Assembly: GCA_018303825.1 (NCBI GenBank)
Contig: JAGVXK010000021.1
Coordinates: forward strand, 7,752 to 71,751
DNA length: 64,000 bases
Source: Candidatus Pacearchaeota archaeon
Lineage (GTDB): Archaea > Nanobdellota > Nanobdellia > Pacearchaeales > GW2011-AR1
Direction of reading: 5' to 3'
Both the position numbers and the translations under genes were made by a program. This document shows positions 10,967 through 45,371 of the stretch, in pieces. The number at the start of each line of letters is the position of its first letter. The stretch's first letter is position 1. The notes under the pieces were generated by a model. It made no database searches. It was given only the letters and a program-made list of their open reading frames with translations, and was not told the origin of the DNA.

Positions 10967-10987
10967 TTTTATATTTTATTTATTCTT
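10966..10987 (+). terminator. T-rich post-stop motif ATTTTATATTTTATTTATTCTT (copy 1)
   Basis: Starts at the last base of the EF-2 stop codon. An identical 22-mer follows the PEP carboxylase stop. Archaeal terminators are oligo-T tracts. Confidence 0.4.
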
Positions 10988-11131
10988 CCTAATACCAAGG
11001 GTCTAGCCTTGGGGATTATGCTCGATGAAGATAAGTTGCTGATGAAATAACAAAGTTTTTTGCTTTCCAATGCCCTGAGGTTCTGCCTTAGAGTTTTTTA
11101 TAATAATGATATTTATAAATGAGCATTATTA

Positions 11132-12604
11132 GTGAATATTATGCCAGAAGTTCTTAAAATCCCCAGATGCATGAGCACACAGCATCCTGATAATGTTACA
11201 ATCCCTTTTTTTGCTGAAAACACTGAACTTGGGGGAGAGGACGAAATACAGGAAGCGTATTACGCTTTCTCCATTCTAGGATGCGATGAGCAGATGTGGG
11301 ACTGCGAAGGAAAAGAAATAGATAATTTCGTAGTTAAAAAATTATTAACAAAATATGAACCATTTTTTAGGGAAAGAATTCTTGGAAAAGATGTTTTTTT
11401 AACATTAAGAGTTCCAAATCCAACTATTGAAAAGTCAGAGGCAAAGATACTTCTTGAAACATTGGAAAGCATCCCAAGGTCATTCGACGCAGCAAAATTA
11501 TTCTATAGAAAAGATATAGCCCCCATATTTGAAGTCATATTGCCTATGACTGCCTCATCAAAATGCATTAACAGGGTGTATGGCTATTATTCAGATTTTG
11601 TTGTCGGAAAACAAAATGCTCTCTTTAAGGATGGGGTCACAATAGCTGACTGGATAGGTGAGTTTAAGCCTGAAAAAATCAATGTCATACCCCTATTTGA
11701 AGATATGCCCCATATGCTCAATGCAGATAAAATTGTAAGAGAATATCTGAAAGATAAAAATTTGAAATATCAAAGAGTTTTTCTGGCTAGATCGGATCCA
11801 GCGATGAATTACGGATTGATTAGCGCCGTGCTACTGAATAAAATAGCATTACATAGATTGCATGACGCGGAAAATGATATAGGAATCAGGATTTTTCCCA
11901 TAATCGGTGTTGGCTCCGCTCCATTTAGGGGAAATCTTAATCCGAAAAATATAGAAAATGTTCTGGGAGAATATCCATACACCCACACATTTACCATTCA
12001 GTCTGCATTCAAATACGATTACTCTCCAAACGACGTCAGAAAAGCTATGGAAAATATTCAATTGGCACAAATAATTGAACAAGAGGGAATAGATGAAGAA
12101 AAATCACTTGATATCATAGAAAGATATTCACAAGAATATCAGAAACAGGTAATTTATTTAGCAGATATTATAAATAAAGTTGCCAGATATGTTCCAAGCA
12201 GAAGAAAAAGAAAGCTGCACATTGGATTGTTTGGCTATTCAAGAGAAGTGGAAAAAGTGAAGCTACCCAGGGCGATAACATTTACAGCAGCGCTTTATTC
12301 CCTTGGTTTGCCTCCGGAACTGATTGGATTAAATGCCTTATCTGGCTCTGATTTTGACTTTTTAAGAAAAAATTACAACAGTTTTGATTCTGACATTAGA
12401 GATGCATTATCCTATTACAATCCAAATTCATTGAAATTTCTGGGTCTTTCAGAAGACATGATAAAAATTCCAGTCAAATGCGAAACCAATCAAAGCCATA
12501 AAGAATTGACAGATATTATTATCGATTCTTTGGAGAAAAATAATGTTGAAATACTCGACGAGAATATACTAAGAGCGGCTCATATAAGAAAATTCCTCGG
12601 ATAA
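11132..12604 (+). CDS. ppcA: Archaeal-type phosphoenolpyruvate carboxylase
   Basis: The N-terminal signature IPRCMSTQHPDN and a ~490-aa length are typical of the archaeal PEPC family. The ATG at 11141 may be the true start. Confidence 0.85.
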   Translation: MNIMPEVLKIPRCMSTQHPDNVTIPFFAENTELGGEDEIQEAYYAFSILGCDEQMWDCEGKEIDNFVVKKLLTKYEPFFRERILGKDVFLTLRVPNPTIEKSEAKILLETLESIPRSFDAAKLFYRKDIAPIFEVILPMTASSKCINRVYGYYSDFVVGKQNALFKDGVTIADWIGEFKPEKINVIPLFEDMPHMLNADKIVREYLKDKNLKYQRVFLARSDPAMNYGLISAVLLNKIALHRLHDAENDIGIRIFPIIGVGSAPFRGNLNPKNIENVLGEYPYTHTFTIQSAFKYDYSPNDVRKAMENIQLAQIIEQEGIDEEKSLDIIERYSQEYQKQVIYLADIINKVARYVPSRRKRKLHIGLFGYSREVEKVKLPRAITFTAALYSLGLPPELIGLNALSGSDFDFLRKNYNSFDSDIRDALSYYNPNSLKFLGLSEDMIKIPVKCETNQSHKELTDIIIDSLEKNNVEILDENILRAAHIRKFLG

Positions 12605-16975: not shown

Positions 16976-17569
16976 ATGAAAAAATCCCTTATTTTAATGG
17001 GCCTGGCACTATCATTTCTAATCCTAGCGGTCACTATGACATCAGCTTATACTAACTATCCAACTTACTACTCAAATAATTACAATAACTACTATTCGAA
17101 CACATATCCTACTTACTCGCAATCTGCAAGTGCCAATTCGGGCTCAAACTCCCAATACTTTAATTTTGGCCCTATAACAAGCAGGAATACGTATTATGAT
17201 TCAAAGTTTGCAAGCTCAAACTTTGACTCAACAGACTATGCCCTAGCCTATCAAGGTCCAATGGCATCAAGAGCAATAACTTATGATTCTTATTTAAAGA
17301 TAAAACCTTCTGGAAAAGTAATACAGACTGTATCTTATGCTGATAAATCAAACTTTGTTGGGGAAATAGCTTTAGAAACAGCTAACTCGCGAAATAGAAG
17401 AACCTCAGCTTCAGAAACGATAAAAACATCAACTGATAATTCCTGGAAGGGCTACACTTGGAGCAACAAAGAAGCATTTGACAACAGCAAATATTCGCAG
17501 AATTCTGGCTGGGATAATTACTATTATCGACCTGTTTTCTCAAACGGTTATTACAACTGGGACTGGTAA
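16976..17569 (+). CDS. Secreted Tyr/Asn/Ser-rich low-complexity protein
   Basis: A signal-peptide-like N-terminus (MKKSLILMGLALSFLILAVTMTSA) is followed by YTNYPTYYSNNYNNYYSNTYPTY.. repeats. Confidence 0.55.
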   Translation: MKKSLILMGLALSFLILAVTMTSAYTNYPTYYSNNYNNYYSNTYPTYSQSASANSGSNSQYFNFGPITSRNTYYDSKFASSNFDSTDYALAYQGPMASRAITYDSYLKIKPSGKVIQTVSYADKSNFVGEIALETANSRNRRTSASETIKTSTDNSWKGYTWSNKEAFDNSKYSQNSGWDNYYYRPVFSNGYYNWDW

Positions 17570-17620
17570 AAAATAGTTGGCACGTTAAGAAAGCCCCTCG
17601 TGTCTTGAATATTTGTTCGT

Positions 17621-17694
17621 GAATCTCTCTTCGAGTGGAATTGACGGCTATTTTAAGTTTGGATTTATGATTTGCGGTGGTGGGAAGGTGCGCT
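17621..17694 (-). repeat. Island repeat, inverted partial copy (arm A)
   Basis: Perfect reverse complements of blocks in copy B: 17681-17694 vs 18145-18158 (14 bp), 17661-17675 vs 18218-18232 (15 bp), 17639-17647 vs 18244-18252 (9 bp). Confidence 0.75.
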
Positions 17695-17701
17695 TTGTGC
17701 A

Positions 17702-18091
17702 TCAAATAGCTACTAATATACTCTCTTTTGCTCTGCTAGTCTCATCTGCAAATGGAACACCTCTCTTGTCATTATACCATCCATATGTTTCTACTTTAGC
17801 TCTTTGTTCTGCAAGTTTCTTTGCAATATCATGTGTTCTTTGCTCCACATTTTCACATTCATCGACTATTCCAATAACGCCATGCACATGTTCAATTCTA
17901 ACTTGCGCTCTATTTTCAAGTAACAAAATAACATATTTGCCATCAATTGGTTTTTCTGGAGTAGCAACTACTATCGTATTCCATACGTCATCTCTTAAAG
18001 GGTTAAAAAATTTAAAAGCAGATATATATTTATAGCCATCATTCCGTTCTGGTTTCCTTTCCTGCAAAACAATCCTTGGTCCGCTACCCAT
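17702..18091 (-). CDS. Hypothetical protein (129 aa) bracketed by inverted repeat arms
   Basis: Balanced, charged composition. The overlapping + strand ORF 17613..18035 is Ser/Cys/Leu-rich and starts inside the repeat. Confidence 0.55.
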   Translation of the reverse strand: MGSGPRIVLQERKPERNDGYKYISAFKFFNPLRDDVWNTIVVATPEKPIDGKYVILLLENRAQVRIEHVHGVIGIVDECENVEQRTHDIAKKLAEQRAKVETYGWYNDKRGVPFADETSRAKESILVAI

Positions 18092-18144
18092 CTTTAAACA
18101 ATATTCATCGCCCTTTTAATTATTTCTATATTGTAAAATATGTT

Positions 18145-18423
18145 AGCGCACCTTCCCATTTCTTATTCATCAATTATTTCGCGAAGCGACTATTTAGGGG
18201 CGGGTGGTCGGGGGAATGCAAATCATAAATCCGTTTAATATTTCCGTCAATTACGTTTAAGCGAGATTAAACTGTCTGCTTTCTGATTTGGGAAAGGGCT
18301 TAAGCGTAACGAGAAGAGAGATTGAGAATTATTTTCATTCTGAAAATAACTTCCTATTTAATTTATAATATTAAGAAGCAAATTTCAAGTTCATTTAATC
18401 GTTCAGGCTAAAAGAACTTTCAA
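18145..18423 (+). repeat. Island repeat copy 1, 5' half (B); candidate structured RNA or MITE-like element
   Basis: Hairpin tcgc-gaa-gcga at 18179-18189. G-rich block at 18197-18214. Hairpin cgtttaagc/gcttaagcg at 18254-18262/18298-18306. 28-nt block at 18396-18423 identical to 22758-22785. Confidence 0.7.
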
Positions 18424-18485
18424 CCAAAAGAAGACAAATCCGAAAAATATATATACCATGATTTATCACTATATTCAATTAACTC

Positions 18486-18509
18486 CATGAGATCTGTAAG
18501 GATCTCATG
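18486..18509 (+). promoter_or_regulatory. Perfect 9-bp inverted repeat catgagatc-tgtaag-gatctcatg just upstream of the NYN gene start
   Basis: 18486-18494 pairs with 18501-18509. It ends 9 nt before the ATG at 18518. Confidence 0.35.
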
Positions 18510-18517
18510 TTTTTTAT

Positions 18518-19066
18518 ATGAATTCCAAAAAAGAGAAGGTTGCGATTTACATCGATGGTAGTAATTTATATTTCTCAATAAAAGATACATTCAATTGTAA
18601 AATTGACTTAGAAAAATTCTGTAAAAAATTAGTGAATGATGATGATTTAGCGAAGATTAATTATTATATTGCTCCTGTTGAGCAATTAGAAAATCCTAAA
18701 GCATACGCTCAACAGCAATCATTCTTTGAAAAATTAAGGAAAATTGATAAACTAAATCTAATTTTTGGCAGGCTAGAAAAGAGAAAGAAAGATGGAGAAA
18801 TATACCATGTAGAAAAAGCAACAGATGTAAATCTTGCCCTTGATTTGGCTTTAGATGCACAAAAAGGGGAATATGATAAGGCTCTTCTTATCTCAAATGA
18901 TGGTGACTTTTCTGGAGCGGTAACTGCCGCAGTCAGTTTCAAAAGAAAAGTCATTTATATTGCCATAGGCACCAACAAATCTATATCTTATCATTTGAAG
19001 AAAGTGGCATCTGCAACCTTTCGAATTAATAAGGAATTCATTGATGAATGTAAATTGGATGAGTAG
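18518..19066 (+). CDS. NYN-domain (LabA/DUF88-like) protein
   Basis: VAIYIDGSNLYFS.. at the N-terminus and ..ALLISNDGDFSGAV.. match the NYN/LabA-type nuclease fold pattern. Confidence 0.75.
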   Translation: MNSKKEKVAIYIDGSNLYFSIKDTFNCKIDLEKFCKKLVNDDDLAKINYYIAPVEQLENPKAYAQQQSFFEKLRKIDKLNLIFGRLEKRKKDGEIYHVEKATDVNLALDLALDAQKGEYDKALLISNDGDFSGAVTAAVSFKRKVIYIAIGTNKSISYHLKKVASATFRINKEFIDECKLDE

Positions 19067-19144
19067 AGTTTTCGGCTATTAGTATATGGTGAAAGTTGGG
19101 TTAAATCTCGTTTCGAACTAAGAGAACAATTATGGAATAATTGA

Positions 19145-19326
19145 GAGATTTACCTTTTAGCAGAGATTAGGCGAGTCTGAAAGACCTCGAGCTACGAACT
19201 AAGAGTCTCGAGTTAGCTAAACCTCACAAGAATGGGCTCTTTGCGTAATTGCTGAGAATCTTATGTTCTTAGGGCATTTCATTTGTATCTGTCGGGGGCG
19301 CGTTTTTGCTTCTCGCAGAAAATCTC
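19145..19326 (+). repeat. Island repeat copy 1, 3' half (C)
   Basis: gagattaggcgag at 19163-19175 (identical to 22884-22896). ctcgag/ctcgag stem at 19186-19191/19207-19212. cgtaattg at 19244-19251. G-rich arm gtcgggggc.. at 19291-19326. Confidence 0.7.
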
Positions 19327-19409
19327 TGATTTTCTGAGCCATCAAGAACTTTGTTCTTGAGGTTTTCTGAAAAAGAAGATTTTTTATATGTTGTTTATTA
19401 TTAATATCT

Positions 19410-19727
19410 ATGACTTATGCAGTTTATACAACTGAGAGTTTTGATAAAGAGGTTGAGAAATTGTCTGGAGGAGACCGAGAGATAATTCAGAAAATGTTTT
19501 TTAAGATTAAAGACAATCCTTACGCCAGTAACCAATTAAGATACAAGAATCTTAGAGAGAAGCGAATTAGAGAAAAAAGAGTTTATTTTCTAGTTTATGA
19601 TGATTTGCGAGCAGTTCTTATTGTTGCTATAAGCGGTAAGAAAGACCAACAAGCAACAATCAATCATATAATCAATTACTTTGATGATTATAAAGAATAC
19701 TTGGAAAAATTGCTAGGAAAAGATTAA
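19410..19727 (+). CDS. relE: RelE/ParE-family toxin
   Basis: 105 aa. The pattern ..EKRIREKRVYFLVYDDLRAVLIVAISGKKDQ.. is typical of RelE/ParE mRNA-interferase toxins. Confidence 0.7.
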   Translation: MTYAVYTTESFDKEVEKLSGGDREIIQKMFFKIKDNPYASNQLRYKNLREKRIREKRVYFLVYDDLRAVLIVAISGKKDQQATINHIINYFDDYKEYLEKLLGKD

Positions 19728-19879
19728 GCAACCTGTCTTACTCTGCCAGCTTTAACATCTTCTAAACTTGCCTTGAACTGCCTTAATAAATCAAAGTCTA
19801 TCTTTTCTAGCTCTCTGAGCATAGCTACTTGAGCCTTCATCTTCTCGTATTCATCTTTTGGTACCTTTACCATTTCCAT
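19724..19879 (-). CDS. Small antitoxin-like protein (51 aa), convergent with and overlapping relE by 4 nt
   Basis: MEMVKVPKDEYEKMKAQVAMLRELEKIDFDLLRQFKASLEDVKAGRV resembles the C-terminal ..DIKAGRV helices of Phd/YefM-type antitoxins. Below the ORF-track cutoff. Confidence 0.4.
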   Translation of the reverse strand: MEMVKVPKDEYEKMKAQVAMLRELEKIDFDLLRQFKASLEDVKAGRVRQVA

Positions 19880-19936
19880 AAATATTTCTAAGAATCAAAG
19901 TTTTTAAGCTTTCTGGAAGTCACTTTTGCCCCCTTG

Positions 19937-20074
19937 TTATTGGTTAATTATCTCTATTTTGAGCTCTACTATCGTTCCCGGTTTTAGTCTCTCCTCTAAC
20001 AATTTAGGCATGATTATTATAGCTTGTTTGCCGTGCTTGGCGATTTTCTTGATTATTGTGAATTGAGTTGTCAT
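19937..20074 (-). CDS. AbrB/SpoVT-like small DNA-binding protein (45 aa)
   Basis: MTTQFTIIKKIAKHGKQAIIIMPKLLEERLKPGTIVELKIEIINQ follows the AbrB/MazE-type swapped-hairpin pattern (..G.s..v.iPk.l.e.l.l..G..v.i.i). Confidence 0.45.
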   Translation of the reverse strand: MTTQFTIIKKIAKHGKQAIIIMPKLLEERLKPGTIVELKIEIINQ

Positions 20075-20258
20075 CTTACTAATTTATAGATCTCATAAAT
20101 AGATACTCCTAAAATTGCATATCTTATTGCAATATTCTTTGCAAAATCCCAGAAAGGATTACCTAAGGGCGAGCCTAAAAATAAAGTATTAAACTTTATT
20201 CCAATAATCTATATTTTCCCACGAGATATCGTAGACAATTGTTTAAAAATTTACTAAC

Positions 20259-20429
20259 TTATTCTGCGGTGAGCCCTAAACTATCTTGATCTGGCAATGC
20301 ATCAGCATAGCAGTCATCTAACAATCTTTCATCAATTCTCTTCAAAGCCCTTCTTTCTCCAATAATTGGAATTGAATCTTTAACAAGTTCGACTAACGAA
20401 ATCTTTTTGTTATTTGCCTTCTCTTTCAT
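20259..20429 (-). CDS. Small hypothetical protein (56 aa), third gene of a minus-strand operon
   Basis: The ATG at 20429 lies 5 nt after the stop of 20435..21145. Translation: MKEKANNKKISLVELVKDSIPIIGERRALKRIDERLLDDCYADALPDQDSLGLTAE. Confidence 0.35.
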   Translation of the reverse strand: MKEKANNKKISLVELVKDSIPIIGERRALKRIDERLLDDCYADALPDQDSLGLTAE

Positions 20430-20434
20430 TTTTT

Positions 20435-21145
20435 CTAACCTCGTATTGAATCTTCTACAATTCTATTCACTTCTGAAAGTATGCGTTCCCTCGTTCTCTG
20501 ACCAAAAATCCTATGGATTAATGAACTATCGTCATAACTTTGTAAAACAAACTCAACATTTGGAGGAGATGTAAATTTCTTAAATCTTCTAAGGGGATAA
20601 ATAGTAGTAACTTTAACCACACAACCATTTTGTTCTCCACCATTTCTTCTTTCAAACAAATCTGTTTCTGCATTCTTTCCATATTCGTCTACTACTCGAT
20701 GGTCGTCTAATACTTGGAGGTATTGTAAATATGGAATTTGACCTTTAGGACAAACGTTTTTTGGTCTAAAACTAAAAGGTTCTTTGTTAATTTTATCTGC
20801 TACAAAGGTCAAGATGTCTTCGGGTGCCTTGAATAAATGTCTACCAAAATCCCTAAAATCTTGCCCTAAAATACCTATTTGAACGCCTTCCCTAGCAGAA
20901 AAACTATAATCTTTCTTTGTATCAAATTCTGTCCAAATATGCCCGCCTAGACTCTCTAAGTGCCCAGTACCATCCAGATGGTTTACAAGAAAAGCGGGCC
21001 AAGTTCCCTTATTGTAATATCCTACCTGACATCCTGTAATTCTTACATTGCCCATTCCATGCAAAAGGTACATTAAATGCTCTGGGCTAATACTATCAAA
21101 TATGGCACTGTTTTGTACTCTCTTATCATACTTTTGTTCAATCAT
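20435..21145 (-). CDS. Hypothetical protein (236 aa)
   Basis: Long ORF with normal composition. Its start overlaps the stop of the upstream gene (ATGA). His/Gly-rich segment HLDGTGHLESLGGHIW. No family recognised. Confidence 0.6.
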   Translation of the reverse strand: MIEQKYDKRVQNSAIFDSISPEHLMYLLHGMGNVRITGCQVGYYNKGTWPAFLVNHLDGTGHLESLGGHIWTEFDTKKDYSFSAREGVQIGILGQDFRDFGRHLFKAPEDILTFVADKINKEPFSFRPKNVCPKGQIPYLQYLQVLDDHRVVDEYGKNAETDLFERRNGGEQNGCVVKVTTIYPLRRFKKFTSPPNVEFVLQSYDDSSLIHRIFGQRTRERILSEVNRIVEDSIRG

Positions 21146-21723
21146 TTTCTTTCACCTCCGAATTTTTTCTGAAGAAAATCCAATGCTAGTTGCCTTTCTC
21201 TTTCTGATTCAAAAATAACAAGGGGCCTTGGCCAAGGTTTGTTACATTTTTTAATAAAAAATTCAAGCAGGGATTGATGAGAAGAAGCTAATAGATGATC
21301 AAACCCGCTAGGGGTTAAATCTGAGTAACCTGGTGTCATCGGGCGACCTATTTTGTCTGCGATAGAATTAACCTCATAGGGTCTTGGTGTGAATGATAAC
21401 GCATAAACCCTCAAACTATCTCCAAACCTACCTGTATTGACGTGCTGAATTAGGCATAATTGATCTCCCAAATAAAGATGCATTTGCATATCCATTTTAT
21501 CTCTTTCATCCGCATTACAATAAATACGCCCGCCAGGAACAACGGGTGATGCTCCGCATAGAGTTATTTCGCCAAACTGAGCAACCCTCTCTAAGTAAAT
21601 TGGACCCCCATCATTAAATCTCGGTGCACATAATGATAAGTTAACACTTCTCTCTCTACAAAAAATTGCGTTTGCCATTTCTTGATGGGCGTCTTTTCTT
21701 TCTATGTTTAATCTTATTCTCAT
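21142..21723 (-). CDS. Hypothetical protein (193 aa)
   Basis: First gene of the operon divergent from the TrmB-like gene at 21852. No family recognised. Confidence 0.6.
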   Translation of the reverse strand: MRIRLNIERKDAHQEMANAIFCRERSVNLSLCAPRFNDGGPIYLERVAQFGEITLCGASPVVPGGRIYCNADERDKMDMQMHLYLGDQLCLIQHVNTGRFGDSLRVYALSFTPRPYEVNSIADKIGRPMTPGYSDLTPSGFDHLLASSHQSLLEFFIKKCNKPWPRPLVIFESERERQLALDFLQKKFGGERK

Positions 21724-21851
21724 TTTCTATTTCTCCCAAGTTTATTTACTATCATAAGATAATGGCATAATAAAGTGTATTTAAATTATTGTTGTAAGGA
21801 AGCTATTAACAATTTAGAAAGAATTAAATATAACAATTCACTTGATTTTAT

Positions 21852-22565
21852 ATGGAAATAACTACACTCGAGAGTCTTGGAATGAACAAAACAGAGGCCA
21901 AAGTATATCTGGCTTTACTTGAATTGGGAGAAGTACAAGCAGGACAGATAAGTAAAAAATCAGGAGTTAATAGAACAAGCACGTATGATTCATTAGAAAG
22001 ACTAATATCGAAGGGTCTCGTTAAATATGTTATTCAATCAAATAAAAAGGTATTCGGGGCAGATAAACCCAATAAAATAGTTGAGCAATTAAAAGAACAG
22101 GAGAGAATAGCTAAGCAAATACTGCCAGAACTTAATAATTTGTTTAAAGAATCAAAAAAAGATGAGGAATCTGAGATCTATAAAGGCAGAAAAGGGATAA
22201 GGTCTATCTTGTTTGAAATAGTAAAATATAAAGAATATATTGCTTTTGGCTCAAAAGGCAAGTTTTTAGAGATAATGAAGCACGATTTTGAGATTTTTCA
22301 AAAAAGGAAGAAAAAATTAAAGATAAAAGCCAGAGTAATATTAAGAGAATCTGATAGGACTTCTGAATCTGTTAAGGTTGCTTATAGTGATTTTAAATTT
22401 GTTCCTGATGAATATGGATCTCCGACTACTACATTTGTTTATGGAAATAATATTGCCATAATTGTCTGGCTGTCTGAGCCAATCGCTACAGTAATAAAGA
22501 GTAAAGAGGTCGCTGAAAGCTATTCGCATTATTTTGAACTACTTTGGAAACTCGCAAAGCCCTAG
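21852..22565 (+). CDS. TrmB-family transcriptional regulator (paralog 1)
   Basis: The N-terminal winged helix LESLGMNKTEAKVYLALLELGEVQAGQISKKSGVNRTSTYDSLERLISKGLV is a typical TrmB HTH. Confidence 0.8.
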   Translation: MEITTLESLGMNKTEAKVYLALLELGEVQAGQISKKSGVNRTSTYDSLERLISKGLVKYVIQSNKKVFGADKPNKIVEQLKEQERIAKQILPELNNLFKESKKDEESEIYKGRKGIRSILFEIVKYKEYIAFGSKGKFLEIMKHDFEIFQKRKKKLKIKARVILRESDRTSESVKVAYSDFKFVPDEYGSPTTTFVYGNNIAIIVWLSEPIATVIKSKEVAESYSHYFELLWKLAKP

Positions 22566-23037
22566 ATGATACCTTCTTCGGCGTGAGCCGAAGCTCTCTG
22601 TGCGAAGCACCCAAGCCCCCGACCAATTTCTGTTTGACTGAAATGCCTACAATCAGCAATTTCGTTTAAGCTTGATTAAACCTTTGGATTTTTTGTTAGT
22701 GGCTTAAGCGGAGCAAAGAGCCAATTACTATTTTAAAGTTGAGGTTTACTTTTCGTCTAATCGTTCAGGCTAAAAGAACTTTCAAGGCAATTGTTAAAAG
22801 TCAAAATAATTGAAAGTTACAGAAAATTATGGTTTCCATAAAGGAAATACTTTAGGATAAAGTAAATAATTTTTCTTTTAGTGGAGATTAGGCGAGTCCA
22901 AAGGACCTCTTGGTGCGAATTAAGAGCCAAGAGTTAGTAAACCACAACGAAATATTTGCGAATAAGTGTAATTGCTGGCTATTTTGGTTTTGGGGCTGGC
23001 GAGGCGTTTTTCTAAGGGGCACTTTTTCCTAGTCTAA
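22566..23037 (+). repeat. Island repeat copy 2 (D), full length; candidate structured RNA or MITE-like element
   Basis: GNRA hairpin cttcggc-gtga-gccgaag at 22576-22593. gtgc-gaa-gcac at 22600-22610. C-rich block at 22611-22623. Hairpin at 22663-22671/22702-22710. 28-nt block at 22758-22785. gagattaggcgag at 22884-22896. Stem at 22907-22913/22927-22933. aattgctg at 22970-22977. G-rich arm at 22992-23027. Confidence 0.75.
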
Positions 23038-23544
23038 CTAGTTAATTAAAAACCTATAATAAGATGTAAGAAAATCCAAATTATCTTTAGGATTTATATT
23101 CATATTTCCCTCTCCTGTAAAAATAACCTTGTCCCTGAGAGGATATAATGGTGACGACCTAAACTCTACATATCCAACTCCCGCCACCCTAAACCATGGC
23201 TCAAAGTCATCATGACCACCCGTGGGCAAAATTATCCCATTTCTAATCTCACTCAAAATATGTACAATTTCTGATCTATCCCTCATTCTTGTCAATTTAG
23301 CAAAATTGAATTTTGTTATTGCATGTGCAACAAGCTTCCTATAAAACTCTGTGCCATACTCGTGATCTGAATTTGAATCGAAGTTCCTTCGACAAAAATG
23401 AAATTCCAGAGGATTTCCTTCAAAATTGGATGACTTAATCAAATTAAGACTATCTTCCAAAAACACGTCTAACGCATTCCGAATACACAACGGGTACTTA
23501 CCAACCCTTCTGAATATAAACGCGTCATCATATAACTTCTCCAT
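23038..23544 (-). CDS. Hypothetical protein (168 aa)
   Basis: Divergent from the TrmB-like gene at 23630. No family recognised. Confidence 0.6.
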   Translation of the reverse strand: MEKLYDDAFIFRRVGKYPLCIRNALDVFLEDSLNLIKSSNFEGNPLEFHFCRRNFDSNSDHEYGTEFYRKLVAHAITKFNFAKLTRMRDRSEIVHILSEIRNGIILPTGGHDDFEPWFRVAGVGYVEFRSSPLYPLRDKVIFTGEGNMNINPKDNLDFLTSYYRFLIN

Positions 23545-23629
23545 GAACTCTCTGTCTTGCCTAGTCTTTTAAATCTTAGTTGTTATTATTAATAACAACA
23601 TTTAAATAATCACTACAATAAAACTAATA

Positions 23630-24337
23630 ATGGAAGAACTCATAGAAAATTTAAAAATGGCCGGTCTAACTGGAAATGAATCAAAAGTTTACGTAGGTCT
23701 AATTAAGATTGGAGAAACTTCAGCCAACGAATTAGCAAAAAATCTGAGTTTAGACAGAACATTAACATATACTATTCTAAACCATTTAATAGAAAAGGGA
23801 ATGGTTGGCTATGTTATCAAAGCAAATAAAAAGTTCTTCTCGGCATCTGAACCACAAAACCTATTAAATAAAATAAAAAAAGATGAAACAGCGATAAAAA
23901 GAGTGATAGAAACTTTAAAAACAATGAAAACAACAAACGAGCCCTCCCCGAAAGTGAATGTTTATGATGGGAAAGAGGGACTCAGAACATTCTTAAGGCT
24001 TCTGACAAAAGATAAGAAGATTTCTGCATTTGGAGCGACAGGCAGATTATATGACTCTCTCTTCGAAACAGAAGCCATCGCAAAAGAATTAAAAAAAACA
24101 TTATCTGCTAGAATTATTGCTAGTAATAAATATCGCACCCATCCAATTAGGAAAATAAAGAGAATTGAAGTAAGATATTTAGATGTGGACAACGAGGCAA
24201 CAACAACCATTTTCGGAGATTATATTGCCCTACATCTTTTAACAGATAAACCATTCATAATAACAATCAAGAACAAAGAAATTGCGCATGGTTATCTAAA
24301 CTATTTCAATCTTCTCTGGAAAATCGCCAAGAAATAA
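23630..24337 (+). CDS. TrmB-family transcriptional regulator (paralog 2)
   Basis: LKMAGLTGNESKVYVGLIKIGETSANELAKNLSLDRTLTYTILNHLIEKGMV. Its C-terminus ..YLNYFNLLWKIAKK parallels ..YSHYFELLWKLAKP of paralog 1. Confidence 0.8.
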   Translation: MEELIENLKMAGLTGNESKVYVGLIKIGETSANELAKNLSLDRTLTYTILNHLIEKGMVGYVIKANKKFFSASEPQNLLNKIKKDETAIKRVIETLKTMKTTNEPSPKVNVYDGKEGLRTFLRLLTKDKKISAFGATGRLYDSLFETEAIAKELKKTLSARIIASNKYRTHPIRKIKRIEVRYLDVDNEATTTIFGDYIALHLLTDKPFIITIKNKEIAHGYLNYFNLLWKIAKK

Positions 24338-24797
24338 TCTGAAAAAGTGCCCCGTTCTGCTGTTTGATAATTATTGTTCGTATTTTCGCCAACAGGCGAC
24401 TATCTGTGCGTAGCACCACCGAGCCAGCCCCTATCGAACTTCCAGCAATTTTGTTTAAACTAGATTAAACGCTCTGCGTCTGATTTCTGAAAATGGTTTA
24501 AACGAAACGAATGAGCAAATCCCTAAAGAGGTTTACTTATCGTTTAATCGTTCGTAATAAGAGTGGTTTTAGCCATTAATACTTAAATCGTATGAGCTAA
24601 AACTAAGACTAAATTCCGTCTTTCTACTAAAGAAAGTATTTCAGGATGAAATAAGGAATTTATCTCTTATGTGAGATTAGCCGACCACTTTAGTAGCGCG
24701 AGCTGATTACGAAAATCCTCGCGACTTTTGCTTTGTTCTCAGCCGATTTCGAAGCGTAATTGCCAAGATTTATAAAGTAGTAGATTTTATTTAGATT
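24338..24797 (+). repeat. Island repeat copy 3 (E), near full length
   Basis: aaaaagtgcccc at 24342-24353. Hairpin tcgcc-aaca-ggcga at 24386-24399. gtgc-gta-gcac at 24406-24416. gccagcccc at 24423-24431. Hairpin gtttaaac/gtttaaac at 24453-24460/24496-24503. gagattagccgac at 24673-24685. Stem cgcgag/ctcgcg at 24697-24702/24718-24723. aattgc at 24758-24763. Confidence 0.75.
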
Positions 24798-25085
24798 ATG
24801 GGTTGGAAAAACTGGAGTTATTGGTTGAGAGGAGGTTTTTTGCTAGCAACGATTTACTTTATTTATACTTTACTTATAAATCAATTATATGGGACAGTTA
24901 TAAAAGCAGGATTATATCGCATATTATATGAGGTCGGATATCCCTTCAATTTTGTACGGTTTTTGGTTATGGGCTTTAATGAATCATTCATAGCCATAAT
25001 TTTCAGTTGGATAATTGCATATATTGTCTTTTTCCTTCTTGGAGCAATAATTGGTTGGATCGTTGGTAAAATAAAATCTAAGTAA
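24798..25085 (+). CDS. Small membrane protein (95 aa)
   Basis: Three hydrophobic segments. Flanked on both sides by island repeat copies. Confidence 0.55.
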   Translation: MGWKNWSYWLRGGFLLATIYFIYTLLINQLYGTVIKAGLYRILYEVGYPFNFVRFLVMGFNESFIAIIFSWIIAYIVFFLLGAIIGWIVGKIKSK

Positions 25086-25100
25086 TTCTTTTTTGAATAA

Positions 25101-25367
25101 TTGGCAATTTCGTTTAAGCAAGCTATTGTGCGACATCTCTGATTCGCACCCAGCGGTTAAGCGGAGCGAGAAATTAACGGGCTGAGAATTGCAAGCCGAA
25201 AGGGGCAAGAGTTTACAGGCAATATTCTATTTGTTACTATGGAAACTCTGAAGGGGAAGGGGCTTTCTTTTTCTTGAGGGGATTTGCAACCCGAGCGATA
25301 GCGAAGGGCAAAGCAAAAGTTTGGTTAATCATACTTAAACGAACATTAAGAATGAAAAAGAAAGGAT
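25101..25367 (+). repeat. Island repeat copy 4 (F), partial and rearranged
   Basis: ggcaatttcgtttaagc at 25103-25119, with the 3' arm ggttaagcggagcgag at 25155-25170. The inner stem gtgcga../..tcgcac replaces the usual loop. Further fragments are gagtttac and cttaaacgaac. Confidence 0.55.
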
Positions 25368-27926
25368 TTAACCTAATATGCTCAAATTCACTTGGACTTC
25401 TGGTTCTTTTGGAACTTTAACAATATCCGCCACTTTGTCTCCTTCTTTCAACTTAACCACATGGACTCCCTGCGTGGCTCTTCCCATGACTCTCAAGTCC
25501 CTCATGCTCGTTCTAAGGACCATCCCTTTTGTTGTCGTTATTATCACAGAATCACGGTCGTTGACACACAAAGAAGAGATGACATTTCCTGTTCTTTCAG
25601 AAACATCAAGACTAATTACTCCTTTTGCGCCCCTCGATGTCTTCCTATATTCTTCTAAATCTGATCTCTTCCCGAATCCTTTTTCTGCTACGGTAAGTAT
25701 TGTTGTTTTCCCATTCATCGGAAGACTTTCAAGAGCGACAACTTCATCTGTCTTTCCTAATTCTGCGCCTTTTACCCCATAAGATACCCTTCCCATAGGC
25801 CTTACCTCGTCGCTGTTGAATCTAACCGCCTGCCCTTTCTTTGTGACAAGCATTACTTCCTGCTTATCTATGACATGACTTACATTGATTAAAATATCAG
25901 AATTATCTGCCGGGAGATTTATTACCCTAACGCCCGTATTTCTTGGTTTGCTCAAATCTTTCAGTGGAAGCTTCTTTACCATTCCAAGTTTCGTGGCAAA
26001 CATCAAATATCCCACATCGAAATTCTTTACAGCTTTTACATTTGCTATGGCTTCATCTCTTAAACTTAAAAGATTGACAATTGCTTTCCCCTTTCCTTGT
26101 CTTTCTGCTGATGGAATATCATTTGCTTTCAGCCAATAAACCCTCCCCCTTGTTGTGAAGAACAATAAGAAATCATGTGTTGAGCAGGTAAGCATCTTGT
26201 TTACAAAATCTTCCTCTTTAAGTTCTGCCCCGCTTGTTCCAGCTCCGCCCCTCTTCTGCTCTTTATATGCCTTAACATCAACTCTCTTCACATATCCTGA
26301 GTTTGTAATCATAATGACAACATCTTTCTTCTCAATAAGGTCTTTTTCTGTTATTTCCTCAACCCTTCTTAATATTCTTGTTCTTCTCTCATCACCATAT
26401 TTTGTCTTAAATTCCTGAACCTCTCTCTTTATAACCTTTAGAATTTCTTTTTCGTCTCCAAGAATTTTCTTCAAGTCAGAAATTCCCTCTTTAAGCTTCT
26501 TTTCCTCATCCCTGAGCTTTCCTTCTTCTAATCTTGTCAATTGCTGCAATCTTATCTCCAAAACTGCCCTTGCCTGCTTATCAGTCAAAGAGAATTTCTT
26601 CATTAAGCCATCGTGTGCATCTGTCGCATTAGCTGATTTTTTGATAAATTCAACAACTTTATCAATATTCTTCTGCGCAATTAAAAGACCTAAGACAATT
26701 TCAAGCCTTTCTTCAGCTTTCTTCAATTCAAACTTGCTTCTATTCCTGACTATTAATCTTCTGTATTTGATATATTCTTCAATTATCTGCTTCAAATTAA
26801 GAACAACCGGCTTATTTCCAACAAGAGCAAGAAGATTTGCATCAAAACTCGTTTCCAGGTTAGTTGAAGTGTAAAGCTTGTTCAATGTAAATTTAGAATC
26901 AACTTCTTTTTTCAATTCAACAACAATTCTTACCTTTCCTTTGGAAGATTCGTCTCTTAAGTCATAAACATCTGGGAGCTTTTTCTCAGTTGCAAGCCTT
27001 GCAATCGATGTAACAAGATCAGACTTGTTAACCATGTAAGGTATTTCATTAATGATTATGATTGGCCTCCCTTTGCGCTCTTCAACTGTTGTTTTTCCTC
27101 TTATTACAATTTTTCCCTTTCCAGACTTATACATATCTTTTATTCCGTCTCCAAATATCTGTCCCCCTGTTGGAAAATCAGGGCCCTTTACTACTTCAGC
27201 AAGTTCATCTATAGTTATTTCCGGCTTGTTTATGCATTCAATTATTGCATCGCATACTTCTGTTAGATTATGGGGGGGAATATTTGTGGCCATTCCTACA
27301 GCTATTCCCGTAGCCCCATTAATTAGTAAATTTGGCAATTTCGCAGGAAGTGTTTCCGGCTCTTTTGTTGAATTATCGAAGTTAGGCCTCATCTTCACAG
27401 TTTCTTTATCAATGTCTTCAATTAATTCCTGTGAAATCTTTGAAAGTTTTACTTCTGTGTATCTTTGTGCTGCCGGACTATCTCCATCGAGTGAACCAAA
27501 ATTTCCTTGCCCGTGCACAAGTGGGTATCTTAAAGAAAAATCCTGTGCCATTCTCACGAGAGAATCATATACTGCAATATCACCATGTGGATGATACTTT
27601 CCTAAAACTTCTCCTACTACTGCCGCTGATTTTCTTGTTGGCTTGCTCGCATCAAGCCCAATAGAATGCATCGCATATAAAATTCTTCTGTGCACAGGTT
27701 TTAACCCATCCTCAACACTTGGAAGTGCTCTCTGAACAATAACGGACATTGCATAATCTATATATGCCTGCTCCATTTCCTCGACTATTTCCACGTTTGC
27801 TACGCCCTTCTCAACTTCTCCCTTTGCTCTTCTTTCCTGCTCTTTCTTTTCTGCTTCTATATCTATCTTTTTCTCTGTTTCATTCCCATTGCAATTTCCA
27901 TTTTTGTTTTCTTGCTTCTCCGCCAT
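25368..27926 (-). CDS. gyrA: DNA gyrase subunit A
   Basis: [29 protein letters not shown], with the active-site Tyr region ..[10 protein letters not shown].. and C-terminal beta-pinwheel repeats. 852 aa. Confidence 0.95.
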
Positions 27927-41342: not shown

Positions 41343-41418
41343 CTCTTTTTTATTGATAATCAGTACAAAAAGAGATATTTAAAAGTTGCTAAGTTGATGT
41401 TTGGGGGGTTGTTCTACA

Positions 41419-41865
41419 TTATTTCCAGAAGAAATAACTTTTTTTCTTCTCTATTCTATCCTCAAAATCAGCCAGATTTGCCTGCTTTGCTTCCTTCTTT
41501 TCCTTCAGATTAACGAATTTTTCATACATTACTTCTATATTTTTCTCGCACACAAAGTCATGCTGCCTAAATCCCCCGCCAAATGTCCTTGGAACATGCA
41601 TTAACTCATGAATTATAACCTTGTCCTGCTCATTCTTATCCAATCTATCAAATTTTTCAAGAAATTCAATGGCATAAAATGCCTTTGTTTTCATTGCCTT
41701 CTGCATTAACTTTCCAAGAGTATGACATCTTGCTATTGTCCTTCTTGTAGAAGAGCCAAAACTCCTTATGCATTCTATTCTATTGATATCTATATGACCC
41801 ATATTTAGCATGGTTATTATCTCATTCATTCTCTCTTTCAAATCTGGCGCATCTTCGTATTTCAT
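41419..41865 (-). CDS. Predicted zinc metallopeptidase (HExxH)
   Basis: The IIHELMHVP motif sits in a ~148-aa protein typical of small archaeal predicted metallopeptidases. Confidence 0.6.
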   Translation of the reverse strand: MKYEDAPDLKERMNEIITMLNMGHIDINRIECIRSFGSSTRRTIARCHTLGKLMQKAMKTKAFYAIEFLEKFDRLDKNEQDKVIIHELMHVPRTFGGGFRQHDFVCEKNIEVMYEKFVNLKEKKEAKQANLADFEDRIEKKKSYFFWK

Positions 41866-41908
41866 TTTATGAACCTCAACTTTCCATGAGCTTTTTTAAA
41901 GGTCATCT

Positions 41909-43234: not shown

Positions 43235-43436
43235 ACACCCAATCTTTGTTCATATCTTGCCCAGCATATTCTATTTTGCCAGGTGAGGCTCCTATTTTTC
43301 TGGAAAGCATATGTATAATCACATTTGCAGAATCATCATCTTGCTCAAAAGGAAGGTAAAGAAGATACTTATTACCTCCAAAATTCTCAAAATATTCTTT
43401 TGATGTATTGAACTTGACTTTTACAACTACTTTCAT
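43221..43436 (-). CDS. DUF167 (YggU)-like small protein (paralog 1)
   Basis: MKVVVKVKFNTSKEYFENFGGNKYLLYLPFEQDDDSANVIIHMLSRKIG.. fits the DUF167 pattern (V.VkPnskk ... dGkAN..li..Lsk.lgv). Confidence 0.5.
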   Translation of the reverse strand: MKVVVKVKFNTSKEYFENFGGNKYLLYLPFEQDDDSANVIIHMLSRKIGASPGKIEYAGQDMNKDWVFEVL

Positions 43437-43443
43437 CTTTTAG

Positions 43444-43524
43444 TTATCTCCCACATGATTTAAACCATCTTATAATATTTGGTTCCTTATTTAATTCTAT
43501 GCCCAAACTTACATTCCCAGTCAT
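43444..43524 (-). pseudogene. Truncated copy of the 82-aa membrane-protein gene (only the C-terminal motif retained)
   Basis: MTGNVSLGIELNKEPNIIRWFKSCGR parallels MTGNVSLNIELNREPAIVRWFKAFKS at the end of 45372..45620. The upstream frame is open but has no start and is closed by TAG. Confidence 0.45.
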
Positions 43525-43585
43525 TTTCTTCGCAACATAACATATTAAAATCAAAAAGACAATGTGGTCTTCGTCTTTTGGATGT

Positions 43586-43617: not shown

Positions 43618-43625
43618 CATAAGGA

Positions 43626-45110: not shown

Positions 45111-45144
45111 TAATCAATAAGAATAACTGCATTTAAAATACTTT

Positions 45145-45360: not shown

Positions 45361-45371
45361 TTTTCTTATAA

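What the first reader, a model, noticed from the sequence alone, without database searches (positions are those of the whole stretch)
22566..23037. Compensatory base changes in four helices suggest the element is a structured plus-strand RNA
Four helices keep pairing while the sequence changes between copies.
1. The 5' hairpin reads cttcggc-GTGA-gccgaag (D 22576-22593), tcgcc-AACA-ggcga (E 24386-24399) and tcgc-GAA-gcga (B 18179-18189).
2. The foot hairpin reads cgtttaagc/gcttaagcg in B (18254-62/18298-306) and D (22663-71/22702-10). In E it reads tgtttaaac/gtttaaacg (24452-60/24496-504), where a g:c pair becomes a:t and a t:g pair becomes t:a.
3. The 3' hairpin reads ctcgag/ctcgag (C 19186-91/19207-12), ctcttgg/ccaagag (D 22907-13/22927-33) and cgcgag/ctcgcg (E 24697-702/24718-23).
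4. A long-range closing helix reads caattacg/cgtaattg (B 18248-55 with C 19244-51), cagcaatt/aattgctg (D 22654-61 with 22970-77) and gcaatt/aattgc (E 24445-50 with 24758-63).
The T:G pairs are wobble-compatible only on the + strand transcript.
Basis: seen in the sequence. Interest (0 to 1): 0.8.

Follow-up and report, generated by a model that had tools for sequence, protein, structure and literature searches.

The report
Ornate hairpin modules separating archaeal gene cassettes

Summary
Three of the four helices (5' hairpin, foot hairpin, 3' hairpin) covary across about 40 copies from about 25 genera of one Pacearchaeota family. The foot shows 43 G-U pairs against 1 A-C, so the plus strand is the folded strand. 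The fourth helix, the 'closing' helix, is mis-assigned: its 3' strand pairs with the 5' domain of the NEXT copy, across the intervening gene (5.1 of 6 variable positions paired, against 2.7 for the own copy; 0 of 10000 permutations).

The real anatomy is an array of two alternating self-contained domains:
- A is a ~135-nt branched hairpin bounded by invariant TAATC...GATTA.
- B is a long fold-back whose apical loop holds a promoter and gene(s).

No Rfam family matches, and no paper describing it turned up in the full-text searches run. In relatives, a distinct XerA-type tyrosine-recombinase paralog sits directly after the last module.

My best reading (confidence about 0.45) is an integron/IMEX-like cassette platform. 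The A hairpin has the R box-bubble-L box-branched tip layout of a large attC site, and the plus strand is probably also the structured 3' tail of the cassette mRNAs. A purely RNA function (about 0.3) is not excluded, because no transcript data exist.

The parts
18146..18400 (+). It holds a C-rich box 18146-57, hairpin H1 18179-89, G-box 18197-18214, P1 strand 18244-52, foot P2 18253-62/18298-18307 and hinge TTTAATC 18394-18400.
18401..19164 (+). A domain with cargo. P5 is 18408-14 with 19154-60. P6 is 18415-23 with 19090-97. The P6 loop holds a TATA-like box and the NYN-domain ORF 18518-19066. The three-way junction P7/P7a/P7b lies at 19098-19153.
   Evidence: (ORF-less form of the same hairpin in the community)
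19165..19309 (+). It holds GATTA+flank 19165-75, P8 19175-85, P9 19186-19212, P3' 19234-44, P1' 19247-55, P0.5 19272-81, P0 G-box 19291-99 and a U-run 19300-09.
19310..22565 (.). Apical loop of holder C->D. Cargo genes are a ParE-family-like ORF 19410-19727 (+), small and unnamed ORFs on the minus strand (19724-21723), and a TrmB-type regulator 21852-22565 (+).
22566..22762 (+). Right arm of holder C->D, the first part of the finding. It holds H1 22576-93, H2 22600-10, P0' C-box 22615-23, P0.5' 22639-47, P1 22653-61, foot P2 22660-71/22702-13, P3 22713-22, and pre-hinge+TAATC 22752-62. Each long-range strand is complementary to 19165-19299, not to D's own 3' part.
22763..22885 (+). A domain of copy D. 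It holds linker GTTCAGG 22763-69, P5 22770-76/22875-81, P6 22777-85/22810-18, P7 22821-30/22866-76, P7a 22832-48, P7b 22849-63 and a 4-nt linker. With TAATC (22758-62) and GATTA (22886-90) it forms a ~134-nt unit laid out as R box-bubble-L box-branched tip.
22886..23027 (+). Left arm of holder D->E, the last part of the finding. It holds GATTA+flank 22886-96, P8 22896-22906, P9 22907-33, P3' 22954-59, P1' 22970-78, P0 22992-23000, a U-run 23004-12, and an outermost strand 23014-27 that pairs with 24342-53.
23028..24341 (.). Apical loop of holder D->E. It holds an ORF of 168 aa (23038-23544, minus), divergent promoter region, and a second TrmB-type regulator 23630-24337 (+).
24342..24549 (+). 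It holds H1 24386-99, H2 24406-16, P0' 24423-31, P1 24442-50, foot 24449-60/24496-24507, P3 24515-20 and hinge 24540-49.
24550..24674 (+). A domain of copy E, a variant stem set. P5 is ATAAGAG/CTCTTAT 24557-63/24664-70. P6 is 24565-73/24596-24604.
24675..24797 (+). Left arm of holder E->F. It holds GATTA+flank 24675-84, P9 24697-24723, P3' 24738-50 and P1' 24758-66, followed at once by a TATA-like box.
24798..25085 (+). Cargo of holder E->F: a 95-aa membrane-like ORF with no family match.
   Evidence: (community contigs join 24766-24809 to 25094-25101)
25086..25330 (+). It holds P1 25101-09, foot 25108-19/25155-66, P3 25170-86, a long variable insert and hinge 25321-30.
25331..25373 (+). Array end. 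GGTTAATC ... GATTTAACC closes a 34-nt loop, a minimal, branch-less A position. The stop of gyrA (minus strand, 25368) follows.

Best explanation
The stretch is one period of a cassette array built from two alternating, self-contained fold-back domains on the plus strand.

A is a ~135-nt hairpin. It has an invariant 5-bp base (TAATC with GATTA), an asymmetric bubble (7 x 4 nt), a covarying 7-bp stem (P5), and a branched tip (P6 plus a three-way junction).

B ('holder') starts at GATTA and ends at the next TAATC. Its two arms pair through four to five short covarying helices (extended P4, P3, P1, P0.5, P0) and carry side hairpins (P8 and P9; foot P2; H1 and H2). Its tip holds an archaeal TATA-type promoter and one or more small genes: toxin-antitoxin pairs, HTH regulators, small membrane proteins. 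The tip of A can also hold genes (NYN here, DUF4258/DUF2283-like pairs elsewhere).

I read this as an integron- or IMEX-like gene-capture platform. Cassettes would be gained, lost and shuffled by site-specific recombination at the TAATC/GATTA core, carried out by a dedicated XerA-type tyrosine-recombinase paralog. The A hairpin would be the folded single-strand substrate, laid out like a large attC site. The same plus strand is most likely also transcribed as the long structured tail of each cassette mRNA, from the promoter in the loop to the U-run after the next P0. The U-G-rich foot and the tetraloop hairpins would act there, in transcript stability or termination.

Shown: the structure, its covariation, the array anatomy, the cargo, the family-wide spread, and the linkage to the recombinase in relatives.

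Inferred: recombination itself, the single-stranded DNA substrate, and transcription.
For: (1) Nine copies or part-copies lie in two arrays of this genome. The 3' domain model hits 24 of 151 genomes (24 genera) of the same family, 18 of 105 in a second sample, and 0 of 45 genomes from 8 sister families. A hinge pattern finds real copies only in Pace-/Woese-/Nanoarchaeota genome bins.

(2) Covariation. The A domain is 94.9% paired against 36-51% slid, with 29 of 46 pairs changed on both sides, on an alignment made without reference to structure. The 3' domain is 92.9% paired, 31 of 34 pairs. The foot is 97.2% paired.

(3) Holder topology. The next foot is the best duplex partner (rank 1 of 26) for 16 of 25 3' domains, while the own foot ranks 14-26. 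In the anchored P1 test the next foot pairs 5.1 of 6 positions against 2.7 for the own foot, with 0 of 10000 permutations. For P0 the next copy is rank 1 in 8 of 25 and rank 5 or better in 16 of 25. Arm-arm cofolds reach -124 to -157 kcal/mol.

(4) Cassette-like biology. The genes are small and mostly co-oriented, including TA, NYN and HTH genes. The element plus its TA cargo is 81% identical between two genera whose flanking housekeeping gene no longer aligns, and the ParE block sits at a different array position. Element segments are 3-10 times deeper than their flanks in four metagenomes.

(5) The A unit shares the R box-unpaired spacer-L box-variable (sometimes branched) tip layout and the size range of large attC sites such as VCR. 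Its boxes read RYYTAATC and GATTRRRY, which is the integron consensus with one extra base pair (the consensus itself is from my own knowledge).

(6) Recombinase link. In 6 of about 15 'type 2' loci a XerA paralog lies 0.3-4 kb downstream, directly after the last hinge, with different housekeeping genes beyond it. These paralogs are 59-72% identical to each other, 45% or less to both XerAs of this genome, and co-exist with a canonical XerA. The subfamily is found in 10 of 23 model-positive genomes against 22 of 127 model-negative ones. At least 12 of 33 such genes abut a contig end on their upstream side, as expected next to a repeat. Where upstream DNA exists, nearly all show the same head and G-box modules, then AACAY, a palindrome with 12-15-bp arms, and a promoter. 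In two genomes the palindrome reads GATTA+flank...flank+TAATC, i.e. an empty holder.
Against: This genome (86% complete) has no member of the array-linked XerA subfamily. Its two XerAs lie on other contigs.

XerA copy number does not track element presence. The subfamily association is modest and the genomes are not independent.

No excision, circle or empty-site junction at TAATC/GATTA was seen.

The integron-type signature, that the core and inverse core of one cassette match, is only weak outside this genome: 5.3 of 7 for the next unit against 4.6 for the own.

The recombinase is not an IntI, the boxes are not AAC/GTT, and nothing like the B arms is known in integrons.

The foot's 43:1 G-U bias, with up to 3 wobbles in 12 bp, and the GNRA-type loops fit RNA better than DNA.

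The palindromes next to the recombinase gene differ in sequence between genomes, which is odd for a core site of a 60-75% identical enzyme.
Confidence: 0.45

Rival explanations
1. Purely RNA-level element: a new family of large ornate RNA. It would be either the structured 3' tail of each cassette mRNA or a read-through precursor in which the B stems enclose the next ORF, acting in transcript stability, termination/insulation or processing. The arrays would have grown by duplication and homologous exchange. The recombinase would be a neighbour or cargo without a role.
For: The foot shows 43 G-U pairs against 1 A-C. The plus strand folds 19.5 kcal/mol better than the minus strand. H1, H2 and P8 carry GNRA-type loops (GUGA, GUAA, GAAA, GAUA). 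There are two three-way junctions with almost no unpaired junction bases. A TATA-like box about 22-30 nt before the loop ORF and a U-run after P0 frame a unit of ORF + right arm + A + left arm. ORFs are mostly co-oriented with the modules. ORF-less compact forms exist (G011; joints).
Against: A transcript that starts at the loop promoter lacks the partner strands of P0, P1, P3 and extended P4, which are the best-covarying long-range helices. Loops reach 3.4 kb and contain antisense genes, promoters and U-runs. The A domain shows no strand bias (11 against 7). No Rfam family matches. No RNA data exist. This reading does not explain the invariant TAATC/GATTA pair, the cassette shuffling between genera or the recombinase adjacency.
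Confidence: 0.3
2. Non-autonomous DNA transposon (MITE or fold-back element). B units would be fold-back transposons with about 10-bp terminal inverted repeats (GATTARNCGA...) that carry passenger genes and insert next to A hairpins.
For: The B ends are imperfect inverted repeats of 10-11 bp. The elements are multi-copy, carry passenger genes and show mosaic similarity.
Against: No target-site duplication flanks the units; the flanks are ...CAGA and GTTCAGG.... No transposase, TnpB or Y1-type gene is nearby, and no TnpB was found in the genome. The arms are not mirror copies. They are different sequences with short complementary segments that covary and with arm-specific side hairpins. This is the signature of selection on a folded single strand, not of repeat binding sites.
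Confidence: 0.08
3. Self-splicing or enzymatically spliced RNA: a group I or group II intron with an ORF in a loop, or a bulge-helix-bulge stem cut by the archaeal splicing endonuclease to give circular RNAs, as in rRNA processing stems.
For: ORFs sit in hairpin loops. Long stems enclose the genes, as processing stems enclose rRNAs. GTGCG follows the first hairpin in some copies.
Against: No Rfam intron or ribozyme family reaches E<=5 over window 17500-26500, or E<=0.1 over the seven related loci. The modules lie between genes, so there are no exons to join. No domain-V-like hairpin was seen. A scan for 3-4-3 bulge-helix-bulge motifs found none at a conserved position in six holders. GTGCG is absent from other copies.
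Confidence: 0.03

Closest known systems
Integron cassette arrays and attC sites (including large branched sites such as Vibrio VCRs; archaeal integrons of Ghaly et al. 2022, PMC9668308)
   Same: [quoted passage not shown] The A unit has a conserved-box duplex, an unpaired spacer, a second 7-bp duplex and a variable, branched tip. Its 134-140 nt fall within the attC size range. A tyrosine recombinase sits next to the array in some genomes.
   Different: The boxes read TAATC/GATTA, not AAC/GTT. The recombinase is a XerA paralog without the IntI additional domain and lies at the downstream end in the same orientation. Every cassette gene is further wrapped in a 150-250-nt-per-arm fold-back (B) with its own promoter. 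Genes can sit inside the tip of the site itself. The plus (coding) strand carries the wobble bias, whereas integrons use the bottom strand.
IMEX elements and the folded single-strand attP of CTX phage at dif sites (from my own knowledge)
   Same: In both, elements pile up in tandem beside a short palindromic site served by a Xer-type recombinase. Two distant half sites are brought together by folding of one strand.
   Different: Here the recombinase is a dedicated paralog encoded beside the array. The units are gene cassettes of 0.8-4 kb, not phages. No replication or phage genes are present. Nothing has been shown experimentally.
Large ornate bacterial non-coding RNAs (ROOL, GOLLD, OLE, HEARO/omega RNA, raiA)
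   Same: They are similar in size (0.3-0.6 kb), multi-branched, supported by covariation, often multi-copy and found in mobile or variable regions.
   Different: No match to any of these Rfam models. Those RNAs are closed single genes. Here the long-range helices link neighbouring copies across protein genes, and genes sit in the loops. No IscB/TnpB partner is present.
Small intergenic repeats that fold in mRNA (ERIC, BOX, Correia/NEMIS, RUP, REP/BIME; e.g. PMC3184786)
   Same: They are intergenic, co-transcribed with flanking genes, hairpin-forming and modular.
   Different: Those are 35-150 bp and are kept alike by recent spread, not by compensatory change across genera. They have no three-way junctions, no cargo genes in their loops, no strict A/B alternation and no linked recombinase.
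Archaeal rRNA processing stems and bulge-helix-bulge introns
   Same: Both have long inverted flanks that enclose a functional sequence in a giant stem-loop.
   Different: No conserved bulge-helix-bulge motif is present. The enclosed sequences are protein genes with their own promoters.

Membership tests
Integron (attC site / IntI) | Integrase of the IntI type with the additional domain around patch III | tested here: not met
   Both XerAs of this genome and three array-linked paralogs pass the XerA equivalog cut-off (220-269 bits, cut-off 220). They fail the integron-integrase model (197-213 bits, cut-off 265) and match it in two stretches with the middle missing.
Integron (attC site / IntI) | Core boxes R'' RYYYAAC and R' GTTRRRY with the conserved AAC/GTT triplet | tested here: not met
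   The invariant boxes are (Y)TTAATC and GATTARRY in 14 of 14 aligned A units, one base pair longer than the consensus.
Integron (attC site / IntI) | Folded layout of R box, unpaired central spacer, L box and variable terminal structure; 57-141 bp | tested here: met
   P4 (5 bp invariant), bubble 7 x 4 nt, P5 7 bp (96.9% paired, 5 of 7 pairs covary), and a branched tip P6+P7. TAATC to GATTA spans 134 nt in D. The attC anatomy is from PMC2727003. Extrahelical bases were not examined.
Integron (attC site / IntI) | The core site at the start of a cassette is complementary to the inverse core at the end of the same cassette | tested here: inconclusive
   The flank of GATTA pairs with the flank of the next TAATC at 5.3 of 7 positions, against 4.6 for the own unit and 4.65 background (n=21/13). 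It is clear in 5 of 6 units of this genome.
Integron (attC site / IntI) | Recombination of the folded bottom strand by the integrase | not testable with these tools
   This needs an enzyme assay or population data. The wobble bias here is on the top strand.
Any Rfam 15 RNA family (incl. group I/II introns, ROOL, GOLLD, OLE, HEARO, SRP, RNase P, ribozymes) | Score at or above the family's gathering threshold | tested here: not met
   Only three tRNAs score in the 64-kb window. Nothing reaches E<=5 in 17500-26500, and nothing reaches E<=0.1 in seven related loci.
MITE / DNA transposon | Terminal inverted repeats plus target-site duplication; a cognate transposase somewhere | tested here: not met
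   Inverted ends of 10-11 bp exist, but no duplication flanks them. No TnpB was found, and no transposase lies near the arrays.
Bulge-helix-bulge intron / processing stem | 3-nt bulge, 4-bp helix, 3-nt bulge at a conserved place in the stem | tested here: not met
   No motif occurs at an equivalent position in six holders.
Xer/dif-type site (IMEX platform) | Short palindromic core (about 11-6-11) recognised by the neighbouring Xer recombinase, with integrated elements beside it | tested here: inconclusive
   A palindrome with 12-15-bp arms and a 4-8-nt spacer lies between the last hinge (AACAY) and the promoter of the paralog in nearly all of about 20 genomes. Its sequence is poorly conserved.

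The most novel reading that the evidence does not exclude
A new class of gene-capture platform in DPANN archaea. Cassettes would be exchanged by a XerA-derived recombinase at ~135-nt branched, attC-like hairpins with a TAATC/GATTA core. Each captured gene would be housed, with its own promoter, in the tip of a second conserved fold-back. The plus strand would double as a large structured RNA, so one sequence is under selection both as a recombination substrate and as RNA.
Probability: 0.3. Interest if true: 0.88.

Novelty: new variant of a known kind. Interest (0 to 1): 0.78.

Why it matters
DPANN archaea have tiny genomes and depend on hosts, and how they acquire and shuffle accessory genes is largely unknown. 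This system occupies about 0.5% of an 0.8-Mb genome and recurs in many genera of one family. It keeps an elaborate fold through extensive compensatory change, and it carries exactly the kind of cargo seen in integrons: toxin-antitoxin pairs, regulators and small envelope proteins.

If it is a recombinase-driven platform, three things follow:
- The integron principle (structure-specific sites plus a tyrosine recombinase) extends to a Xer-derived enzyme and to a different core.
- Searches keyed to the AAC/GTT core triplets would be expected to miss it.
- It offers a new structure-specific recombination system.

If instead the fold works as RNA, it is one of the largest and most modular RNA architectures known in archaea, with genes nested in its loops. 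Either outcome can be tested directly with existing groundwater samples.

Tried and rejected
- Rfam gathering and E-value scans found no family.
- BLAST of D against 40 relatives gave only AT-rich chance hits; the covariance model was needed.
- Alifold on the 3' domain alone proposed GAUUA pairing with UAAUU near the 3' end. I dropped this once full-length alignments showed GAUUA pairs with the hinge UAAUC.
- Group II intron idea (hairpin followed by GTGCG): no domain V, GTGCG is missing in other copies, and there is no Rfam hit.
- Bulge-helix-bulge scan: no conserved motif.
- The 'S piece' (a GC-rich hairpin after array-terminal hinges) as the ancestral 3' half or a known RNA: it also occurs alone after convergent genes, so I treat it as a separate small element.
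- XerA copy number against element presence: no relation.
- Duplex-energy rank test for extended P4: noisy and uninformative. The anchored test gave a weak effect.
- Sequencing runs: no RNA holder listed.
- Laying four DNA runs gave contigs broken at the repeats and joints between paralogous copies, but no clean excision or empty-site junction.
- Viral contigs: the single pattern hit carries no element.
- Literature: six full-text searches turned up no paper describing the element. Only canonical archaeal integrons and archaeal group I introns came up.
- Not run: metagenome-contig scan, structure prediction of the recombinase, complex prediction.
Full report
OBSERVATION. The window is contig C22:7752-71751 of an 806-kb, 35% G+C, 86%-complete genome bin. 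The runs that hold the stretch are groundwater and soil metagenomes. Related loci carry titles naming Candidatus Pacearchaeota, Woesearchaeota or Nanoarchaeota archaea. The 472-nt stretch folds better than shuffles on both strands. The plus strand reaches -134 kcal/mol (z -3.3) and the minus strand -114.5 (z -3.2).

COPIES AND SPREAD. A profile of the three window copies finds a second array of five copies or part-copies on contig C18 (locus L001), and a further half copy in the window (F, 25086-25330). I built a covariance model of the 3' domain (R1).
- It hits 24 of 151 genomes, all different genera, of the same family, with 1-12 copies each.
- In a second sample it hits 18 of 105 genomes of that family and 0 of 45 genomes from eight sister families.
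- A 26-nt hinge pattern scanned over 185,579 species' genomes returns 32 loci. All of the roughly 20 archaeal loci carry real copies and none of the 12 bacterial ones does.
- The one viral-contig hit is a chance match.
- Rfam 15 has no matching family.

COVARIATION.
- 3' domain (40 matches, 36 distinct): 92.9% of cells pair, against 37-55% when the partner is slid. 31 of 34 pairs change on both sides. This alignment is fitted to the model.
- A MAFFT alignment of 14 ORF-less central units from 9 genomes was therefore also counted. It is 94.9% paired against 36-51% slid, with 29 of 46 pairs changed on both sides. P5 is 96.9% paired, P6 99.2%, P7 94.4%, P7a 94.3% and P7b 99.0%. TAATC/GATTA never varies.
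- Foot, in 24 copies: 97.2% paired, with four pairs changed on both sides.
- The 5' hairpin occurs with at least eight different stems, always followed by ACUAUCUGU and a second covarying hairpin.

THE FOURTH HELIX AND THE TRUE TOPOLOGY. The 3' strand AAUU-NNNNNN does not covary with the NNNNNN-AAUU in front of its own foot. It covaries with the one in front of the next foot downstream, across the intervening gene(s).
- In 19 units from 12 genomes, 5.1 of the 6 variable positions pair with the next foot. The own foot gives 2.7 (n=10) and the background is 3.2. No permutation out of 10000 reaches the observed total.
- Duplex energies for P1 plus a newly found helix P3 make the next foot the best of 26 candidates for 16 of 25 3' domains.
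- The G-rich box after each 3' domain pairs with a C-rich box before the next 5' domain (P0): rank 1 in 8 of 25 and rank 5 or better in 16 of 25.
- In this genome the matches are perfect 9-11-mers that differ from unit to unit.
- The flank of GATTA also matches the flank of the next TAATC better than its own in most units of this genome. Across genomes the effect is weak: 5.3 against 4.6 of 7, and own pairing is only 71%.
- Cofolding the two arms gives -124 to -157 kcal/mol.

REVISED ANATOMY. The array alternates two self-contained domains.
- A runs from TAATC to GATTA.
- B (the 'holder') runs from GATTA to the next TAATC, and has genes in its apical loop.
- The finding's 22566-23037 is therefore three pieces: the right arm of holder C->D (22566-22762), the A domain of D (22763-22885), and the left arm of holder D->E (22886-23027).
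- The partner strands of the first piece lie at 19165-19299. Those of the last piece lie at 24342-24549.

CARGO AND SIGNALS.
- Holder loops contain one to several small ORFs, mostly co-oriented with the modules. Here these are a ParE-family-like ORF, two TrmB-type regulators, unnamed ORFs and a 95-aa membrane-like ORF.
- A TATA-like box lies 22-30 nt before the loop ORF, and a U-run follows P0.
- The tip of A (the P6 loop) can also hold genes. It holds an NYN-domain ORF in the window (18518-19066). In C18 and in at least four other genera it holds a pair of small ORFs that look like DUF4258/DUF2283 toxin-antitoxin genes by eye; these were not scanned.
- Community contigs join 18423 to 19090 through 21-25 other bases, which is the ORF-less form of that hairpin.
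- The module plus its TA cargo is 81% identical between this genome and G127, although the adjacent homoserine-dehydrogenase-like gene no longer aligns. The ParE block sits at another array position there.
- Module segments are 3-10 times deeper than their flanks in four metagenomes.

RECOMBINASE LINK.
- This genome has two XerA-type recombinases on other contigs. They are 45% identical to each other, and both lack the integron-integrase additional domain.
- It has no TnpB and one reverse-transcriptase gene elsewhere.
- Across 151 family genomes, XerA copy number does not follow element presence.
- In 6 of about 15 loci of a divergent module type ('type 2'), however, a XerA paralog lies directly after the last hinge on the same strand. 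Different housekeeping genes lie beyond it: a P-type ATPase, SpoIIM/STT3, PolB, topoisomerase I and SRP54.
- Five of these six paralogs are 59-72% identical to each other (the sixth, from G144, only 39-46%), none is more than 46% identical to this genome's XerAs, and they co-exist with a canonical XerA.
- The subfamily occurs in 32 of 151 genomes: 10 of 23 model-positive against 22 of 127 model-negative.
- At least 12 of 33 genes abut a contig end on their upstream side, as expected beside a repeat.
- Where upstream DNA is present, nearly all show the same head and G-box modules, then AACAY, a palindrome with 12-15-bp arms, a TATA box and the start codon.
- In G103 and G144 that palindrome reads GATTA(or CATTA)+flank ... 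flank+TAATC, i.e. a holder with nothing in it.

WHICH STRAND, WHICH MOLECULE. The foot has 43 G-U against 1 A-C. The A domain has 11 against 7. The earlier count over A plus P8/P9 was 30 against 15. So the plus strand is the folded one, at least for the holder arms. Evidence points both ways on RNA against single-stranded DNA:
- RNA is favoured by the wobble-rich foot, the GNRA-type loops and the promoter/U-run framing.
- A DNA-level role is favoured by long-range helices that span promoters, U-runs and antisense genes, by the invariant core pair, by the cassette behaviour and by the recombinase.
No RNA run was available, so this remains open.

MECHANISM. I commit, at about 0.45, to an integron/IMEX-like platform. 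The A unit has the layout described for attC sites: R box, unpaired spacer, L box, and a variable and sometimes branched tip (PMC2727003). It also falls in the size range of large attC sites, but it has a TAATC/GATTA core and a Xer-derived enzyme. The holders are an added layer that supplies each cassette with a promoter and a terminator and that may also work as RNA. A purely RNA reading gets about 0.3. A fold-back transposon gets about 0.08; there is no target duplication and no transposase, and the arms are not mirror copies. Introns or bulge-helix-bulge processing get about 0.03.

COMPARISON AND NOVELTY. The system works like an integron but fails two defining tests, the IntI domain and the AAC/GTT boxes. 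It meets the structural test for the site. Canonical integrons are known in Nanoarchaeota (PMC9668308), but nothing with this site, these holders or this enzyme turned up in the paper searches. I rate it a new variant of a known kind. It would be categorically new if the dual DNA/RNA role or an RNA-only role were proven.

LIMITS.
- All genomes are draft bins.
- Related copies are not independent, so the shuffle statistics overstate significance.
- Model R1 misses divergent types.
- The DUF4258/DUF2283 naming is by eye.
- The integron consensus boxes and the IMEX analogy rest on my own knowledge.

Noticed in passing
L001:2870-3000 (G000 C18 about 10870-11000, minus); also L019-L023, L044, L086-L115: A small GC-rich element (GCGTTCGGCGCTTCGCGCCTCA-like, then GGCTATTTTT) follows the last hinge of many arrays. 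It also occurs alone after convergent genes. It is present in 77 of 401 family genomes, often 2-3 per genome and sometimes in tandem 0.4-1.5 kb apart, with none in the reversed-pattern control. No Rfam match. It may be a terminator hairpin or a separate small RNA.
   Followed up: partly
window 57592-57719 (minus): Rfam calls a tRNA spanning 128 nt (57.3 bits) that ARAGORN does not report. It is probably an intron-containing archaeal tRNA.
   Followed up: no
window 40306-45452: There are three diverged direct repeats (69-71% over 65 nt; a 300-nt pair at 70%) spaced 1.9-3.2 kb apart. They look like the starts of three paralogous minus-strand genes in tandem.
   Followed up: no
G000 contig C20:55852-56473 (loci L051, L052): The only reverse-transcriptase match of the genome is split into two adjacent matches, the stronger of which reads through one TGA. 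It is not near any module. It could belong to a diversity-generating retroelement, or be a broken or recoded gene.
   Followed up: no
L124:3790-3890 (G000 C5 about 11790-11890): A remnant of the 'type 2' module (P8/P9 and a G-rich tail only) lies 5.7 kb upstream of this genome's second, divergent XerA paralog. G-box-like tails recur at L124:4040-4070 and 4455-4480.
   Followed up: partly
window 18197-18214, 19291-19299, 22992-23000; tails of many related loci: The G-rich boxes (e.g. GGGGCGGGTGGTCGGGGG) stand out in a 35% G+C genome and have three to four G-runs. Besides pairing with the C-box, they could form G-quadruplexes. Some relatives' tails resemble a Shine-Dalgarno-like GGAGGTG.
   Followed up: no
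L131, L134, L137, L141, L142 (upstream of array-linked XerA genes): A third foot variant occurs (stem CCTTTTATCC ... GGATAAAAG with an inner hairpin), followed by H1-ACTATCTGT-H2 and a G-box. This suggests a wider superfamily of such modules than model R1 detects.
   Followed up: no
window 19410-19879 and L001:8995-9568: A ParE-family-like toxin ORF is followed by a small convergent or overlapping ORF. This is a likely toxin-antitoxin pair that recurs at 81% identity at a different array position in another genus.
   Followed up: partly
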